Positions 1 to 4,401 of a stretch of 4,401 nt of DNA are shown here, in pieces. The notes under the pieces were generated by a model. It was not told the origin of the DNA and ran no database searches. It saw only the letters and a list, made by a program, of their open reading frames with translations. The stretch lies in the IMG/VR virus record IMGVR_UViG_2529292907_000005. The stretch is one strand, 5' to 3'. Position 1 is the first letter of the stretch. Each line of letters begins with the position of its first letter. Made by a program: the position numbers and the translations under genes. Source of the stretch: a virus. Its lineage: Duplodnaviria > Heunggongvirae > Uroviricota > Caudoviricetes.

Positions 1-1
1 A

Positions 2-2182
2 TCAGCCAGCGAGGCGGCAACTCATGCGACTGATGCTGCAGGCTCAGCACGTGCAGCCAGCACGTCAGCCGGACAGGCCGCGTCGTCGGCTCAGTCAGCG
101 TCTTCCAGCGCAGGAACGGCATCGACAAAGACCCGTGAAGCAGCAAAAAGTGCTGCTGCTGCAGAGTCATCAAAAAGCGCGGCAGCTACCAGCGCCAGTG
201 CCGCGAAAACGTCAGAAACGAATGCCGCAGCATCACAAAAATCGGCAGCCACTTCTGCATCCACAGCGACCACGAAGGCGTCAGAAGCTGCCACCTCGGC
301 ACGGGGTGCGGCGGCCTCAAAAGAGGCAGCGAAATCTTCAGAAACGAATGCATCATCAAGTGCCAGTAGTGCAGCTTCCTCGGCAACGGCGGCAGGAAAT
401 TCCGCGAAGGCGGCAAAAACGTCCGAGACGAACGCTAAGTCTTCTGAAACAGCAGCGGGACAGAGCGCCTCAGCTGCGGCAGGTTCAAAAACAGCGGCTG
501 CATTATCTGCCAGTGCCGCGTCAACAAGTGCCGGGCAGGCCTCAGCCAGTGCCACCGCCGCCGGAAAATCGGCAGAAAGCGCCGCATCATCCGCTTCAAC
601 AGCCACAACGAAGGCTGGCAAAGCCACTGAGCAAGCCACTGCAGCAGCGAGGTCTGCTTCTGCAGCAAAAACCTCTGAAACAAATGCAAAGACTTCAGCA
701 GACAATGCTGCTTCCTCTAAGGCGGCAGCCGCATCGTCAGCCAGTTCAGCGGCGTCATCGGCATCATCTGCGTCTGCTTCAAAAGATGAGGCGACCAGAC
801 AAGCGTCAGCAGCGAAAGGTAGTGCCACGACAGCAACAACGAAAGCATCAGAGGCGGCAGGCAGTGCGACGGCTGCATCTCAGAGCAAAGTTGCTGCTGA
901 ATCCGCGGCAACGCGCGCCGAGACAGCAGCAAAACGGGCAGAGGATATTGCATCCGCCGTGGCGCTGGAGGATGCGAGCACGACGAAAAAGGGGATAGTA
1001 CAGCTCAGCAGTGCGACCAACAGCACTTCCGAGTCACTGGCGGCAACGCCAAAAGCGGTTAAGGCGGTAATGGATGAAACGAACAAGAAAGCCCCATTAA
1101 ACAGCCCGGCACTGACCGGAACGCCAACAACACCAACTGCGCGACAGGGAACGAATAATACCCAAATCGCAAGCACGGCTTTCGTTATGGCTGCGATTGC
1201 CGCCCTTGTAGATTCGTCACCTGATGCACTGAACACGCTGAACGAGCTGGCTGCGGCGCTGGGCAACGACCCGAATTTTGCGACCACCATGACTAACGCG
1301 CTTGCGGGTAAGCAACCGAAAGATGCCACCCTGACGGCGCTGGCCGGACTTACTACTGCGGCAGGCAAGTTTCCGTATTTTACGGGGAATGATGTCGCCA
1401 GCCTGGCAACCCTGACAAAAGTCGGGCGGGATATTCTTGCGAAATCGACCGTTGCTGCCGTTATCGAATACCTCGGTTTACGAGAACTCGGCACAAGCGG
1501 GGAGAAAATACCGTTACTCAGTACAGCGAATACCTGGACTAATCGACAAACATTCAGCGGTGGCCTTTCAGGTGAACTATCCGGCAATGCTTCTACAGCT
1601 GCAAAATTAAAAACTGCCAGGAAAATAAGCAATGTGGCTTTTGATGGTTCCTCCGATATCACATTAAAAGCAAGTCATGTTGGTGCGTTTGCCTTAGGGA
1701 AAACAGGAAGCACCGTTGCGAATGATAAAGCAGTTGGATGGAACTGGAGTAGCGGAGCCTATAACGCAACTATTAGTGGTGCATCAACGTTAATTATTCA
1801 TTTTTATATGGGAGAAGGAAGTTGTCCTGCAGCTCAGTTTCGGATTAATTATAAAAATGGCGGTATTTTTTATCGTTCAGCCCGTGATGGTTATGGTTTT
1901 GAAGCCGACTGGTCAGAGTTTTACACCACGACCCGCAAACCCTCTGCGGGAGATGTTGGTGCATACACGCAGGCAGAATGTAACTCAAGGTTTATTACAG
2001 GTATTCGCCTTGGCGGTCTGTCATCTGTTCAGACATGGAATGGTCCCGGCTGGTCTGACAGGTCAGGTTATGTCGTTACGGGTTCAGTTAACGGAAACCG
2101 TGATGAATTAATTGATACAACTCAGGCAAGGCCAATTCAGTATTGCATTAATGGGACGTGGTATAACGCGGGGAGTATTTAA
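2..2182 (+). CDS. stf: Side tail fibre protein, 5'-partial: Ala/Ser/Thr-rich repeat shaft followed by a variable C-terminal (receptor-binding) domain; the start codon lies upstream of the window
   Basis: Frame 2 is open from the window edge to TAA at 2180..2182. The ORF track shows only 959..2182 because there is no in-frame ATG/GTG/TTG before the GTG at 959. My translation of 2..958 gives low-complexity repeats (...SAAKTSETNAKSSETAAGQSASAAAGSKTAAALSASAASTSAGQASASATAAGKSAESAASSASTATTKAG...), which I recognise as the lambdoid Stf-type shaft. The ORF continues through ...KFPYFTGNDVASLATLTKVGRDILAKSTVAAVIEYLGL and ends ...RPIQYCINGTWYNAGSI. Family assignment is from memory, not a search. Confidence 0.9.
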   Translation, partial: SASEAATHATDAAGSARAASTSAGQAASSAQSASSSAGTASTKTREAAKSAAAAESSKSAAATSASAAKTSETNAAASQKSAATSASTATTKASEAATSARGAAASKEAAKSSETNASSSASSAASSATAAGNSAKAAKTSETNAKSSETAAGQSASAAAGSKTAAALSASAASTSAGQASASATAAGKSAESAASSASTATTKAGKATEQATAAARSASAAKTSETNAKTSADNAASSKAAAASSASSAASSASSASASKDEATRQASAAKGSATTATTKASEAAGSATAASQSKVAAESAATRAETAAKRAEDIASAVALEDASTTKKGIVQLSSATNSTSESLAATPKAVKAVMDETNKKAPLNSPALTGTPTTPTARQGTNNTQIASTAFVMAAIAALVDSSPDALNTLNELAAALGNDPNFATTMTNALAGKQPKDATLTALAGLTTAAGKFPYFTGNDVASLATLTKVGRDILAKSTVAAVIEYLGLRELGTSGEKIPLLSTANTWTNRQTFSGGLSGELSGNASTAAKLKTARKISNVAFDGSSDITLKASHVGAFALGKTGSTVANDKAVGWNWSSGAYNATISGASTLIIHFYMGEGSCPAAQFRINYKNGGIFYRSARDGYGFEADWSEFYTTTRKPSAGDVGAYTQAECNSRFITGIRLGGLSSVQTWNGPGWSDRSGYVVTGSVNGNRDELIDTTQARPIQYCINGTWYNAGSI
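195..690 (+). repeat. Degenerate in-frame repeats inside the stf shaft region, built on a ~21-nt unit encoding K-[TS]-S-E-T-N-A
   Basis: Four copies of the motif AAA-[AT]C[GTC]-TC[ACT]-GA[AG]-AC[GA]-AA[TC]-GC are seen near 196, 331, 417 and 668 (gcgaaaacgtcagaaacgaatgc, gcgaaatcttcagaaacgaatgc, gcaaaaacgtccgagacgaacgc, gcaaaaacctctgaaacaaatgc). They sit within a longer Ala/Ser-rich low-complexity region spanning about 1..960. Confidence 0.6.
1222..1481 (+). repeat. Left arm of a long inverted repeat (partner 4142..4401), lying in the stf constant region just outside the crossover site
   Basis: Direct comparison of + 1222..1481 with the reverse complement of 4142..4401 shows the inner 116 bp (1366..1481 vs 4257..4142) identical and the outer 144 bp differing at about nine positions by eye. 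Homology stops abruptly at 1482 (cGAgaaCtCg vs cAGgaaAtGg). Confidence 0.9.
1461..1486 (+). other. Putative serine-invertase crossover site (gix/pix/cix/hix-like), left copy, with core dinucleotide at 1473..1474
   Basis: TTATCGAATACC-TC-GGTTTACGAGAA is an imperfect 12-2-12 palindrome matching the TTATC..AAACC-NN-GGTTT..GATAA pattern of DNA-invertase sites as I recall them. It lies exactly at the boundary between flank homology and the divergent cassette. Confidence 0.7.
2168..2175 (+). promoter_or_regulatory. Ribosome-binding site for tfa (GCGGGGAG), about 9 nt upstream of the ATG; translationally coupled to stf (stop at 2180..2182, start at 2185)
   Basis: Purine-rich GGGGAG at 2170..2175 sits at canonical spacing from the ATG at 2185..2187. 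Confidence 0.55.
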
Positions 2183-2184
2183 TT

Positions 2185-2718
2185 ATGCAGCACTTAAAAA
2201 ACATTACTGCTGGCAATCCTAAAACAAAAGAGCAATACCAGCTAACAAAGCAATTTAACATCAAATGGCTTTATTCAGATGATGGAAAAAACTGGTATGA
2301 GGAACAAAAGAATTTCCAGCCAGACACATTGAAAATGGCCTATGACCATAACGGCGTTATTATTTGTATTGAAAAGGATGTTTCAGCAATTAATCCGGAA
2401 GGCGCAAGCGTCGTTGAATTACCTGATATTACAGCAAATCGCCGTGCTGACATTTCGGGTAAATGGATGTTCAAAGATGGCGTAGTGGTAAAGCGAACTT
2501 ATACCGAGGAAGAGCAGAGGCAGCAGGCGGAAAATGAAAAGCAAAGCCTGCTACAGCTCGTCAGGGATAAAACCCAGCTATGGGACTCACAGCTACGGCT
2601 GGGCATCATTTCCGACGAGAATAAACAAAAATTAACAGAGTGGATGCTCTTTGCGCAGAAAGTCGAATCTACAGACACTTCCAGCCTGCCAGTAACGTTT
2701 CCCGAACAACCTGAATGA
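2185..2718 (+). CDS. tfa: Tail fibre assembly protein (Tfa-type chaperone), 177 aa
   Basis: Intact ORF from the track, starting 2 nt after the stf stop with a good RBS. The protein ([22 protein letters not shown]...[30 protein letters not shown]...) matches my memory of enterobacterial phage Tfa proteins, and its position immediately downstream of a tail fibre gene fits. Confidence 0.9.
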   Translation: MQHLKNITAGNPKTKEQYQLTKQFNIKWLYSDDGKNWYEEQKNFQPDTLKMAYDHNGVIICIEKDVSAINPEGASVVELPDITANRRADISGKWMFKDGVVVKRTYTEEEQRQQAENEKQSLLQLVRDKTQLWDSQLRLGIISDENKQKLTEWMLFAQKVESTDTSSLPVTFPEQPE

Positions 2719-2721
2719 GAC

Positions 2722-2748
2722 AAGGCCCGCTATCGGGCCTTAATTTTT
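2722..2748 (+). terminator. Intrinsic terminator hairpin between the convergent tfa genes (8-bp GC-rich stem AAGGCCCG / CGGGCCTT, 4-nt loop, then AATTTTT)
   Basis: Perfect inverted repeat at 2722..2729 and 2734..2741 followed by a T-run at 2744..2748, located in the 28-bp gap between the tfa stop (2716..2718) and the tfa' stop (2747..2749). The U-tract is good only for the + strand direction. Confidence 0.6.
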
Positions 2749-3273
2749 ATTCAGGCTTTTGTGGCCATTCGGGATTTGCTGTATCCACACGGCTGACCAG
2801 AACGCTGTAGCGTTCCCATGACTCCAGTCGTGCGCGCTCCTCATCCGTCGCCATGTTCAGCCTGACAGCGCGTTCCAGTGGCTGGATAACTGATTCAGCT
2901 TCGGAAAGTAATGCGGCCTTTTGTGATTTGGCCTGTTGTTGCTGTTCGTCTGCCGTATAAATCCGCTTAACTACAGCCCCGTCCTTAAACATCCACTTAC
3001 CTGAATCATCGGCACGGCGATTAGCTGTAATATCAGGAACTTCAACGACGCTATAGCCTTCAGGGTTAAGCGTGGAGGCATCTTTGGTGATGGCGACAAT
3101 AATATTATTCTCGTCATAAAGAATTTTTATTGTGTCTTCCTGAAAGTTCTTTAATTCCTCGTACCAGTTTTTCCCATCTTCTGACCACAACCAGATAACA
3201 TCAAAATTCTTTGTTAGCTGATATTGCTCTTTTGTTTTAGGATTGCCAGCAGTAATGTTTTTAAATGCTGCAT
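2747..3273 (-). CDS. tfa: Second tail fibre assembly protein (tfa'), frame-disrupted as sequenced: the ATG at 3273..3271 encodes MQHLK, then a one-base-shorter poly-A tract shifts the frame (stop at 3216..3214); the homologous frame is open from 3190 to the stop at 2749..2747
   Basis: The reverse complement of 3273..3250 is ATGCAGCATTTAAAAACATTACTG, against ATGCAGCACTTAAAAAACATTACTG in the + copy at 2185. The other frame reads ...[36 protein letters not shown]... and matches the track ORF 2747..3190, whose listed start is a TTG. The C-terminal part (...[35 protein letters not shown]...[30 protein letters not shown]) is Tfa-like. Confidence 0.8.
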
Positions 3274-3276
3274 GAT

Positions 3277-4092
3277 TTATACCTGTGCAACGTTATACCA
3301 TGTGCCATTGATGTATTTTTGTATTGGTCTGAACACAGCCGGATCATCGCCATCAACTTCGCCGACAATGCCAAGCCCCGTAATTGCATGGCCTGATTTT
3401 TCATACATCACGCCTCTTTGCATAGTTTGAACAACACGCGTGCCAAGTCTGACATCTCTCACATAGCGTGAATCAAAATTCCCCCAGTTGCTGGGTTGTA
3501 TCTGACCGTTTACAGCAAATATCACCGAGTTATCTGTATTTCGCTGACTATAGAAATGCCAGCCTGAATCATCACCAAGCTCTGCAACAGTTGGTCTTGA
3601 TGAAGCGCCCCATAAATTAAACCCTACGTTCTTCGTGGAGTTGTTGGAGCTGGATAGCGTGAATTTTTTACCATCCCCAGCCTGAATATTTTTAAAAGCA
3701 ATAGCCACTCCATTCTGAAAGCGGAATACACGCTGACTATTAGCATAAACATCAAGAATACCGTCTCCATTCTGTTTAAATCCGGTATCATTATCACCAA
3801 GAACAATAGAGCTACCACCTAACGCATTCGTCGTACCAACTCCAAGGCTGCCATTAATGACGGCATTAACAAGAATATTTAGCGCATCCCATTTCAGCGT
3901 CATCAGGTCTTTTGTTGTGGTGCTTTGTTTGCTTCTCCATTTGAAATATTCATTGCCGTTGTCGCCTGTTTCAAACCACATGTATGAATCAGTGTCACCA
4001 TCGGCATCATTTTTAAATCCAATCTTCGCCCAGTCAGTATTTCGAATCCAGGCAAGGATTGAGTCATTTTCAAAAGTAAGCCCACCGGACAA
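3277..4092 (-). CDS. Alternative tail-fibre C-terminal variable domain (inverted cassette); the frame is open upstream to 4116 but is not in frame with the fibre constant region as sequenced
   Basis: Track ORF of 271 aa, whose listed start is a TTG at 4092..4090, ending ...[17 protein letters not shown] with the same C-terminal motif as the + strand fibre. Upstream in this frame it reads RRAKNGDTL before a stop at 4119..4117. It is followed 3 nt later by the tfa' ATG. Confidence 0.8.
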
Positions 4093-4401
4093 AGTATCGC
4101 CATTTTTTGCACGGCGTTACCAGCCCTGTTTACCATTTCCTGTAAACCGAGGTATTCGATAACGGCAGCAACGGTCGATTTCGCAAGAATATCCCGCCCG
4201 ACTTTTGTCAGGGTTGCCAGGCTGGCGACATCATTCCCCGTAAAATACGGAAACTTGTCTGCCGCAGTAGCAAGCCCGGCCAGCGCCGTCAGGGTGGCAT
4301 CTTTCGGTTGCTTACCCGCAAGCGCGTTAGTCATGGTGGTCGCAAAATTCGGGTCGTTTCCCAGCGCCGCCGCTAACTCGTTCAGCGTATTCAGTGCGTC
4401 A
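3900..4401 (-). CDS. Inward-reading tail-fibre constant-region copy, 5'-partial (continues beyond the right edge); it reads through the crossover site and, because of the frame problem at 4103..4108, runs into a stop at 3902..3900
   Basis: The reverse complement of 4401..4142 encodes DALNTLNELAAALGNDPNFATTMTNALAGKQPKDATLTALAGLATAADKFPYFTGNDVASLATLTKVGRDILAKSTVAAVIEYLGL, near-identical to + strand residues encoded at 1222..1481. It then continues QEMVNRAGNAVQK and an out-of-frame tail (MAILCPVG...QQKT*). Confidence 0.65.
4137..4162 (-). other. Putative serine-invertase crossover site, right copy, with core dinucleotide at 4149..4150
   Basis: The + strand reads TTCCTGTAAACC-GA-GGTATTCGATAA; the minus strand reads TTATCGAATACC-TC-GGTTTACAGGAA. 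It has the same outer half-site and core as the left site and differs at 2 positions in the inner half-site. My recollection is that it is very close to the Mu gix sequence. Confidence 0.7.
4142..4401 (-). repeat. Right arm of the long inverted repeat (partner 1222..1481); it reaches the window edge, so its true length is unknown
   Basis: See the left arm: 116 bp identical plus 144 bp with about nine mismatches. Confidence 0.9.

What the first reader, a model, noticed from the sequence alone, without database searches (positions are those of the whole stretch)
4142..4401. Right flank is a second inward-reading fibre constant region under apparent coding constraint, not an invertase gene
In the textbook systems the invertible segment is flanked on one side by the fibre constant region and on the other by the invertase. 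Here the right flank (4401 down to 4142, minus strand) is an open reading frame encoding the same fibre segment as the left flank. Of about nine nucleotide differences between the two arms, I read seven as synonymous (only T->A and G->D change the protein). That pattern suggests the right copy has been maintained as coding sequence. This would mean two convergent fibre genes sharing one invertible cassette pair, so that each orientation gives each gene a different tip; the alternative is a constrained partial duplicate. I do not recall this layout being the standard one.
Basis: partly seen in the sequence, partly recalled or inferred. Interest (0 to 1): 0.8.

Follow-up and report, generated by a model that had tools for sequence, protein, structure and literature searches.

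The report
Draft-contig join of two prophage fibre genes
The right flank really is tail-fibre coding sequence, but it is an ordinary piece of a second prophage's fibre gene, and it most likely ended up opposite the first fibre gene because a 4.4-kb draft contig was assembled through a flip-flopping DNA segment, not because the phage has a new two-gene design.

Summary
Positions 4401-4142 read on the minus strand encode the same fibre segment as 1222-1481, with 9 differences outside the crossover site: 7 synonymous, plus T->A and G->D (dN/dS ~0.10). The interpretation mostly fails.

- The window is an entire 4401-nt contig of the E. coli DEC6B draft assembly, so nothing exists beyond 4401.
- Each arm is 100% identical to an independently sequenced gene: the left to a lambdoid prophage Stf (NCTC86), the right to gene H of a P2-like (P88-type) prophage. 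The synonymous bias is therefore divergence between two functional phage genes, not maintenance in place.
- In 59 of the 60 best-matching complete E. coli genomes, and in P88-like phages, this segment has one constant region and an invertase on the other side, in either flip state.
- Two-armed versions occur only in short contigs or chunks that end inside the arms, and in one demonstrably misassembled record.
- As sequenced, the right-hand frame is broken 40 nt inside the segment by a 1-nt homopolymer deletion. tfa' is broken in the same way.

The likeliest explanation is an assembly path through an invertible, shared segment of a standard Mu G/P1 C-type system. A real exchange between the two prophages remains possible (~15%).

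The parts
2..1460 (+). Constant part of a lambdoid side-tail-fibre (Stf-type) gene, Ala/Ser-rich, running off the left contig end. Positions 1222-1460 form the left arm of the long inverted repeat.
   Evidence: Open frame 2 through to 2182. 97.8-98.1% identical to the Stf of the NCTC86 lambdoid prophage (J-lom-Stf context), with 1109-1497 identical.
1461..1486 (.). Left 26-bp invertase crossover site (gix/cix/pix type), TTATCGAATACCTCGGTTTACGAGAA.
   Evidence: 22/26 identical to Mu gix, whose centre is the annotated G-segment boundary. Identical to the EC958 Phi1_5prime crossover site (PMC4134206 Table 3). It is the breakpoint between flip states in complete genomes.
1487..2182 (+). Sv cassette: alternative C-terminal tip, fused in frame to the left constant region; stop at 2180-2182.
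   Evidence: ORF 959..2182. Precomputed Pfam gp37_C on the called gene. 99.9% identical to the 15A P2-like prophage.
2185..2718 (+). Tail fibre assembly gene tfa, of the Mu U' type.
   Evidence: Pfam Caudo_TAP, E = 1.8e-36. 95.5% amino-acid identity to Mu U'.
2722..2741 (.). GC-rich hairpin with T/A runs on both sides, between the two convergent tfa genes (terminator-like).
   Evidence: Terminator scan: 8-pair stem with 6 GC pairs. Consensus match only.
2747..3273 (-). tfa' (Mu U type), broken as sequenced by a 1-nt deletion in a T-run (T5 at 3252-3256; T6 in relatives).
   Evidence: After adding one T it is identical to the 175-aa protein of 15A, and 93.7% identical to Mu U.
3277..4136 (-). 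Sv' cassette: second alternative C-terminal tip, broken as sequenced by a 1-nt deletion in a T-run (T6 at 4097-4102; T7 in 23 of 23 relatives).
   Evidence: After repair, the frame from 4400 to 3277 is 374/374 identical to residues 255-628 of the 15A H protein.
4137..4162 (.). Right 26-bp crossover site; its reverse complement reads TTATCGAATACCTCGGTTTACAGGAA.
   Evidence: 24/26 identical to Mu gix. Identical to EC958 Phi4_5prime. There are only two such sites in the window.
4163..4401 (-). Right arm (the finding): an internal fragment of a second fibre gene's constant region, best matching gene H of a P2-like (P88/Xuanwuvirus-type) prophage. It reads inward and is cut by the contig end.
   Evidence: 100% identical over 260 nt to the H constant region in 15A. 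In P88-like phages and CUVET20-PYO2 this stretch is part of the single full-length fibre gene that follows gpV-W-J-I.

Best explanation
The window is a standard Gin/Cin/Pin-type invertible tail-fibre module: two 26-bp crossover sites in inverted orientation, around Sv-tfa and the mirror-image tfa'-Sv'. Window 1487-4401, read backwards, is the ordinary 3' part of a P2-like prophage's fibre region in its flipped state (H constant region, crossover site, Sv', tfa', then the silent tfa and Sv). Window 1-1486 is the constant region of a different, lambdoid prophage's Stf gene, which naturally carries the same crossover site and the same first ~430 nt of Sv.

Shown: each junction exists separately in nature; the arms carry the alleles of two different, independently sequenced genes; the synonymous bias comes from divergence between those two gene lineages.

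Inferred: the two flanks were put on one 4.4-kb contig by the DEC6B draft assembler. It would have walked through sequence shared by two prophages and/or present in both orientations in the sequenced culture. The contig stops at 4401, which is where the right arm becomes identical for 92 nt to the reverse complement of the contig's own positions 1133-1224. In the cell, each fibre gene most likely has its own segment with an invertase (or invertase remnant) on the far side. The two frameshifts are most likely homopolymer undercalls.
For: Whole-contig status: AIFW01000052.1, 4401 nt, E. coli DEC6B.

The arms match two different genes: left arm 0 differences to the NCTC86 lambdoid Stf; right arm 0 differences to the 15A H; the 9 arm differences are exactly the differences between those alleles. 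Window 1366-4401 differs from the 15A P2-like prophage by 3 substitutions and 2 homopolymer indels. After repair, the products are 374/374 and 175/175 identical.

Synonymous bias is not local: omega is 0.05 in 998-1219, compared with the external H gene.

Standard layout elsewhere: P88-like phages, lambdoid prophages, and the same prophage in both flip states with the same invertase WP_000905058.1. Of the 60 best complete E. coli genomes, 59 have one arm only, covering query 1-2945 or 236-3180. None of the 25 best hits to the whole window runs past 4166 with the left flank attached. In IMG/VR, 29 loci have a distal site followed by an invertase against 2 with a second arm.

Two-armed cases are short contigs or chunks ending in the arms. 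L031 is a 4110-nt whole contig whose arms are 411/411 identical; L065 is a 3838-nt chunk whose arms are 190/190 identical. The one 'complete' record with both arms (15A) has a 17,495-nt perfect palindrome and a 27-kb end-of-record hairpin.

Contig end: no A/B differences between 1132 and 1225, and the last discriminating SNP is at 4398.

Literature: clonal cultures hold both orientations at roughly 1:1 (PMC4272514). Alternate-orientation contigs can create artefactual duplications, and a 454 draft differed from the finished genome at homopolymer tracts and at an invertible fibre region (PMC4134206).
Against: No reads, coverage data or other DEC6B contigs could be examined, so the chimeric join is inferred and not demonstrated. 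The sequencing platform is unverified. Unlike L031 and L065, the window's arms differ, so a simple one-locus flip-flop artefact is not enough; a second prophage has to be assumed. The switch from lambdoid-like to P2-like affinity falls in 1366-1497, an interval that contains the crossover site, and that is also what a real site-specific exchange would give. An assembler that bridged a 116-nt perfect inverted repeat (1366-1481 / 4142-4257) might have been expected to bridge the 92-nt repeat at which the contig stops. The right-arm allele also occurs, at 97.5% identity, in a lambdoid Stf (L006), so the P2-like origin rests on best match.
Confidence: 0.72

Rival explanations
1. The layout is physically real but accidental. 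Recombination between two prophages of DEC6B left the lambdoid Stf constant region and the P2-like H constant region converging on one segment. The route would be a trans-acting invertase acting on the left site of one prophage and the right site of the other, or homologous recombination in the shared constant/segment sequence, giving a large chromosomal inversion or a deletion. The reciprocal product would be a segment, or a junction, flanked by two invertase genes. Flipping, if an invertase still acts in trans, would swap the tips between the two genes.
For: The affinity switch (1366-1497) includes the crossover site. The two sites are near-identical to sites shared by different prophages in EC958, where action in trans was proposed. 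Movement of fibre modules between three prophages of one strain has been reported (bioRxiv 10.1101/2022.05.07.487787). Geometry (my inference): two prophages in the same chromosomal orientation, exchanging between gixL of one and gixR of the other, give exactly constant | segment | reversed constant.
Against: No credible instance in the complete genomes examined. Every two-armed case is a short contig, a chunk or a misassembly. The contig ends inside the arm, so nothing ties the right arm to a full gene in this genome. Both minus-strand cassettes are frameshifted as sequenced. The adjacent invertase gene, which in P1 also carries the annotated inversion enhancer, would be missing.
Confidence: 0.15
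2. One reading: an evolved, selectively maintained arrangement in which two convergent fibre genes share one invertible cassette pair, so that each orientation gives each gene a different tip.
For: dN/dS ~0.10 between the arms. In relatives the right-hand frame belongs to a full-length gene.
Against: The synonymous bias is fully explained by divergence between two phage gene lineages, since each arm is 100% identical to an external gene and the same omega holds outside the repeat. The arrangement is not found in any phage genome or credible complete genome. A maintained system should recur. As sequenced, the right-hand gene is frameshifted and has no tip.
Confidence: 0.03
3. A P1-style long inverted repeat, or a truncated partial duplicate of the constant region, directly followed by an invertase gene just beyond 4401.
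For: Long inverted repeats do occur in this family. NCTC86 and L031 have repeats of roughly 500 to 880 nt, and EC958 Phi1 has a 508-bp imperfect repeat.
Against: Those repeats, like P1's, lie inside the crossover sites, whereas the window's arms lie outside them. The lambdoid relatives of the left flank have no right-arm copy: their matches stop at 4166 and are followed by a recombinase. The right arm together with the repaired Sv' is identical to a complete H gene's residues 255-628.
Confidence: 0.03

Closest known systems
Invertible tail-fibre segment of P2-like (P88 / Xuanwuvirus-type) prophages of E. coli, e.g. phage P88_4B11, Citrobacter phage Shae_phiSM, and prophages of CUVET20-PYO2 and O145:H28 12E115
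   Same: Window 1457-4401 is 90% identical to the phages and 99% identical to the prophages. It has the same Sv, tfa, tfa', Sv' order, the same crossover sites, and the right arm is the H constant region.
   Different: In those genomes the other side of the segment carries the serine invertase. In the window it carries a lambdoid Stf constant region.
Lambdoid prophage side tail fibre (Stf) with an invertible segment and a pin-type recombinase remnant (NCTC86; O114:H49 90-9280; the e14/Rac/Qin type in K-12, the last from memory)
   Same: Window 1-1963 is 98.1% identical to NCTC86: the same constant region, the same crossover site and the same first part of Sv.
   Different: In those genomes the segment diverges after 1914 and is followed by a recombinase gene or fragment, with no second constant region.
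Phage Mu G segment with Gin
   Same: Crossover sites are 22-24/26 identical to gix. tfa is 95% identical to U' and tfa' is 94% identical to U. About 91% DNA identity over 43% of the window. The layout is a constant S region outside one site.
   Different: Mu has only 34-bp inverted repeats (from memory), with gin next to the other site. The constant region is not homologous over most of its length.
Phage P1 C segment with Cin (also P7, D6)
   Same: Homologous cassettes, about 89% DNA identity over 48% of the window, and the same recombinase family.
   Different: P1's long inverted repeats lie inside the cix sites and belong to the segment. Sc lies outside one site, and cin, with its enhancer, lies outside the other. 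The window's 240-nt arms lie outside the sites.
Assembly artefacts at invertible fibre segments (Forde et al. 2014, EC958, PMC4134206)
   Same: Identical 26-bp sites. The paper warns that alternate-orientation contigs can produce artefactual duplications. The 15A record shows such a mirror duplication around this very segment.
   Different: The window's arms are not identical, so two different prophages must be involved, not one locus in two orientations.

Membership tests
Gin/Cin/Pin/Hin-type invertible tail-fibre segment (Mu G, P1 C, e14 P) | Two ~26-bp crossover sites in inverted orientation that match the family consensus | tested here: met
   1461-1486 and 4137-4162 are 22/26 and 24/26 identical to Mu gix. 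They are identical to sites reported for the EC958 prophages.
Gin/Cin/Pin/Hin-type invertible tail-fibre segment (Mu G, P1 C, e14 P) | Two alternative fibre C-terminal cassettes, each with its own assembly gene, in mirror arrangement between the sites | tested here: met
   Sv 1487-2182 with tfa 2185-2718 (+); tfa' 2747-3273 with Sv' 3277-4136 (-). The two minus-strand genes each carry a 1-nt homopolymer deletion.
Gin/Cin/Pin/Hin-type invertible tail-fibre segment (Mu G, P1 C, e14 P) | Serine invertase gene, with its enhancer, next to the site opposite the constant region | tested here: not met
   There is no recombinase ORF in the window, and the contig ends 239 nt beyond the right site. The feature is present in every credible relative. 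The absence here is what the assembly explanation accounts for.
Gin/Cin/Pin/Hin-type invertible tail-fibre segment (Mu G, P1 C, e14 P) | The segment is found in both orientations relative to the constant region | tested here: met
   Complete genomes split into query 1-2945 and 236-3180 classes, with breakpoints at the sites. The same prophage and invertase appear in both states. Inversion in DEC6B itself was not tested.
P1-type long inverted repeats | The long repeats lie inside the crossover sites and invert with the segment | tested here: not met
   The window's arms 1222-1460 and 4163-4401 lie outside the sites. The P1 annotation places cixL and cixR at the outer boundaries of the C segment.
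p15B Min-type multiple-inversion (shufflon-like) fibre region | More than two crossover sites delimiting several invertible sub-segments | tested here: not met
   Only two sites within 8 mismatches of the site sequence were found in the window.
P2-like phage fibre gene H (right arm) | N-terminal tail-collar/baseplate-attachment domain, followed by fibre repeats, directly downstream of gpI | not testable with these tools
   The contig ends at the equivalent of H residue 255. In 15A-type H the missing part carries PF12571 and PF03406, and gpI/gpJ precede the gene. No other DEC6B contigs could be reached.
Lambdoid side tail fibre Stf (left flank) | Stf N-terminal domain, in the gene order J-lom-stf | not testable with these tools
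   The N-terminus lies off the left contig end. Relatives at 94-98% identity are annotated 'prophage tail fiber N-terminal domain-containing protein' and sit downstream of gpJ and lom.

The most novel reading that the evidence does not exclude
In E. coli DEC6B a site-specific or homologous exchange between a lambdoid prophage and a P2-like prophage has really placed their two fibre genes convergently around a single invertible segment. Each flip, driven by an invertase acting in trans, would then swap receptor-binding tips reciprocally between fibre genes of two different phage families.
Probability: 0.13. Interest if true: 0.5.

Novelty: already known. Interest (0 to 1): 0.15.

Why it matters
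If the layout were real, it would show that invertase crossover sites shared between unrelated prophages can rewire whole fibre genes, couple the host ranges of two phages, and rearrange the chromosome. On the evidence here it is mainly a cautionary case. Invertible phage fibre segments, together with homologous constant regions in several prophages, produce short draft contigs, and even 'complete' records, with mirror-image flanks that look like new gene arrangements. A low dN/dS between two repeat copies does not show selection at that locus when each copy is identical to a functional gene elsewhere.

Tried and rejected
- Exact 42-nt scan of genome contigs with a conserved constant-region pattern: 0 hits.
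- Attempt to extend L065, the only two-armed case inside a long (30.6 kb) contig: no more sequence is held.
- Literature look-ups for AIFW and for the DEC collection paper, to learn the sequencing platform: the accession was not found and the paper is not held. The homopolymer-error reading is therefore an inference.
- Pfam on the Stf part of the fibre and on the 165-aa right-hand ORF: no family.
- The 15A complete genome first looked like independent support for convergent fibre genes. I rejected it after finding a perfect 17.5-kb palindrome, a pgsA | truncated-gpA junction, and a 27-kb hairpin across the record origin.
- A single-locus flip-flop artefact alone was rejected for the window, because the arms differ at 9 positions.
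- A P1-type repeat and a Min-type multi-site system were rejected on site positions and site number.
- The promoter scan showed nothing above the shuffled expectation.

Full report
WHAT IS IN THE WINDOW

Frame 2 on the plus strand is open from position 2 to 2182. It encodes an Ala/Ser-rich fibre shaft followed by a C-terminal cassette. Next comes a tail fibre assembly gene at 2185-2718 (Pfam Caudo_TAP). After that, on the minus strand, lie a second assembly gene (2747-3273) and a second C-terminal cassette (3277-4136).

Exactly two 26-bp sites resemble invertase crossover sites. The left one is 1461-1486, TTATCGAATACCTCGGTTTACGAGAA. The right one is 4137-4162, whose reverse complement reads TTATCGAATACCTCGGTTTACAGGAA. 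They match Mu gix at 22/26 and 24/26 positions. They are letter-for-letter the Phi1_5prime and Phi4_5prime crossover sites reported for E. coli EC958 prophages (PMC4134206).

The assembly proteins are 95% identical to Mu U' and 94% identical to Mu U. The segment DNA is 88-92% identical to the Mu G, D108 and P1/P7/D6 C segments over 43-48% of the window. The core of the window is therefore a classical Gin/Cin/Pin-type invertible tail-fibre segment.

THE OBSERVATION

The arms 1222-1486 and 4137-4401 form a 265-nt inverted repeat. The minus-strand frame from 4400 is open and encodes the same peptide. Outside the crossover site there are 9 differences: 7 synonymous, plus T->A and G->D. Nei-Gojobori gives dS 0.117, dN 0.012 and omega 0.10, with Fisher p = 0.002. 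Two further differences (1482/1483) lie inside the crossover site.

The arms lie outside the two crossover sites. This differs from P1, where the annotated cixL and cixR sites bound the whole C segment, so that its long repeats invert with the segment.

WHERE THE WINDOW COMES FROM

The window is the complete contig AIFW01000052.1 (4401 nt) of draft assembly GCA_000249615.2, E. coli DEC6B. 'Extending rightwards' is therefore impossible in the source record, and both window ends are assembly break points.

WHAT THE TWO FLANKS ARE

The left flank is a lambdoid side tail fibre. Window 1-1963 is 98.1% identical to the Stf gene of an NCTC86 prophage that has the order J-lom-Stf-tfa-tfa'-Sv'-recombinase remnant, and 1109-1497 is identical to it.

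From 1366 to 4401 the window differs from a P2-like prophage of strain 15A by only three substitutions and two single-T deletions. The right arm is 100% identical to that prophage's fibre gene H.

The nine arm differences are exactly the differences between those two external genes. The synonymous bias also continues (omega 0.05) through 998-1219, where the window's Stf is compared with the external H gene and where no partner exists in the window. The low dN/dS therefore reflects purifying selection during the divergence of two functional phage genes. It does not show maintenance of a copy at this locus.

One caveat applies: the H-type alleles also occur, at 97.5% identity, in a lambdoid Stf (L006). 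The P2-like origin therefore rests on the 100% / 99.9% best match.

In P88-like phages and in the complete genome of CUVET20-PYO2, the stretch equal to the right arm belongs to the single full-length fibre gene. That gene lies downstream of gpV-W-J-I, and the serine invertase sits on the opposite side of the segment.

After restoring one T in each of two T-runs, the window's right-hand frame is 374/374 identical to residues 255-628 of the 15A H protein. The N-terminal 254 residues of that protein carry the tail-collar N-terminal domain PF12571 and a fibre repeat.

So the frame does continue into a real gene in relatives. There, however, it is the only fibre gene at the segment.

HOW COMMON IS A SEGMENT WITH TWO CONSTANT REGIONS?

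Complete E. coli genomes. 126 complete genomes hold at least 80% of window 1222-4401. Among the 60 best, 59 carry either the left arm plus the segment (query 1-2945) or the segment plus the right arm (query 236-3180). These are the two flip states, with breakpoints at the crossover sites. 12E115 and CUVET20-PYO2 show the same prophage, with the same invertase WP_000905058.1, in the two states. With the whole window as query, no hit with the left flank attached runs past 4166.

The one exception. Strain 15A is a misassembly. Record positions 10333-27827 are a 17,495-nt inverted copy of 30490-47984 with zero mismatches. The last 27.2 kb of the record is the reverse complement of positions 301-27497. 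In addition, pgsA abuts a truncated gpA.

IMG/VR contigs. 98 contigs carry a conserved 42-nt constant-region pattern, and 42 of them have enough room to judge. Of these, 29 show a distal crossover site followed by an invertase or its remnant, and only 2 show a second inverted constant region. Those two are L031, a 4110-nt whole contig whose arms are 411/411 identical and whose right arm runs to the contig end, and L065, a 3838-nt chunk whose arms are 190/190 identical and for which no more sequence is held.

Every two-armed instance is therefore a short assembly fragment ending in the repeat, or a hairpin artefact.

MOST LIKELY EXPLANATION

Clonal E. coli cultures carry such segments in both orientations, often near 1:1 (PMC4272514). 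Assemblers are known to mishandle them (PMC4134206).

In an assembly graph, the edge 'Sv' -> reversed constant region' is simply the reverse complement of the real edge 'constant region -> Sv'' from the flipped state. A walk of constant -> segment -> reversed constant is therefore easy to emit.

Here the two arms carry different alleles, so two prophages must contribute. One is a lambdoid prophage supplying 1 to about 1486. It shares the crossover site and about 430 nt of Sv with the other, as NCTC86 shows. The other is a P2-like prophage in the flipped state, supplying the rest.

The contig stops at 4401, three bases after the last allele-discriminating position (4398). From there the H sequence becomes identical, for 92 nt, to the reverse complement of the contig's own 1133-1224. 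That is a typical repeat-boundary break.

I put this explanation at about 0.72. It is an inference, because reads and the other DEC6B contigs were out of reach.

RIVALS

A real recombination between the two prophages, either at their near-identical crossover sites or by homology, would give the same sequence. The lambdoid-to-P2-like switch interval (1366-1497) does contain the crossover site. Exchange of fibre modules among prophages of one strain has also been reported. I give this about 0.15.

THE FRAMESHIFTS

As sequenced, tfa' (T5 at 3252-3256) and Sv' (T6 at 4097-4102) are each one T short relative to every relative examined: 5 of 5 have T6 and 23 of 23 have T7. The right-hand ORF therefore leaves the Sv' frame 40 nt inside the segment and stops at 3903.

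Because the repaired products are 100% identical to intact proteins elsewhere, homopolymer undercalls are the simplest reading. Very recent slippage mutations cannot be excluded.

VERDICT

The component parts are real and already known: a standard invertible fibre module of E. coli prophages. The proposed convergent two-gene architecture is most likely an artefact of a draft contig. Interest is low. A modest residual chance remains that a genuine inter-prophage exchange exists, and this could be settled with the DEC6B reads or a single long-range PCR.

Noticed in passing
window 3252-3256 and 4097-4102: There are two single-base deletions in T-runs (T5 against T6, and T6 against T7 in all relatives). 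They frameshift tfa' and Sv', while the plus-strand genes are intact. After repair the products are 100% identical to intact proteins of 15A. These are probably homopolymer undercalls in the draft, and less likely recent slippage mutations.
   Followed up: yes
NZ_CP077477.1 (E. coli O111:H21 15A): L005 10333-47984, L008 whole: This 'complete' RefSeq chromosome has a 17,495-nt perfect palindrome centred on the fibre segment. Its last 27.2 kb is the reverse complement of positions 301-27497. It also has a non-biological pgsA | truncated-gpA junction. This is a long-read hairpin or alternate-orientation misassembly that mimics convergent fibre genes.
   Followed up: yes
L007 (NCTC86) 7457-7963 and 9948-10454; L031 589-1465 and 3234-4110: Some lambdoid versions of this segment carry long (roughly 500 to 880 nt) inverted repeats that extend inside the crossover sites, so the first parts of Sv and Sv' are alike. 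This is the P1-style arrangement, and it gives assemblers long shared stretches.
   Followed up: partly
window 1366-1497: The switch from lambdoid-like (NCTC86) to P2-like (15A) affinity falls in a 132-nt stretch that is identical in all three sequences and contains the left crossover site. This is compatible with a join made by the assembler in shared sequence, and also with a real site-specific exchange.
   Followed up: partly
window 2185-2718 (differences from 15A at 2328 and 2339): The exact 177-aa tfa protein of the window occurs on only this one contig among about 15 billion catalogued proteins, although its 90% cluster has 2400 members. Two private substitutions relative to 15A account for this.
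   Followed up: no
window 2722-2741: A GC-rich 8-pair hairpin flanked by A/T runs sits in the 28-nt gap between the convergent tfa genes. It is a plausible bidirectional terminator.
   Followed up: no
window 200-694: A family of 33-nt direct repeats (5 copies, 64-100% identical) lies in the Ala/Ser-rich Stf shaft, giving a reiterated '...K(T/S)SETNA...' peptide motif. The left contig end lies in this repeat-rich, multi-copy region.
   Followed up: no
L083 (IMGVR_UViG_2695420708_000013) 9322-10539, with invertase hits at 4542-5126 and 6038-6325: This locus has two copies of the constant-region stretch on the same strand about 600 nt apart (one only 239 nt long), plus two recombinase matches. 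It may be a nested or duplicated fibre/invertase arrangement.
   Followed up: no
L006 (O114:H49 90-9280) 5354-5631: A lambdoid Stf here carries the same nine 'H-type' alleles as the window's right arm. Constant-region alleles are thus shuffled between lambdoid and P2-like fibre genes.
   Followed up: partly
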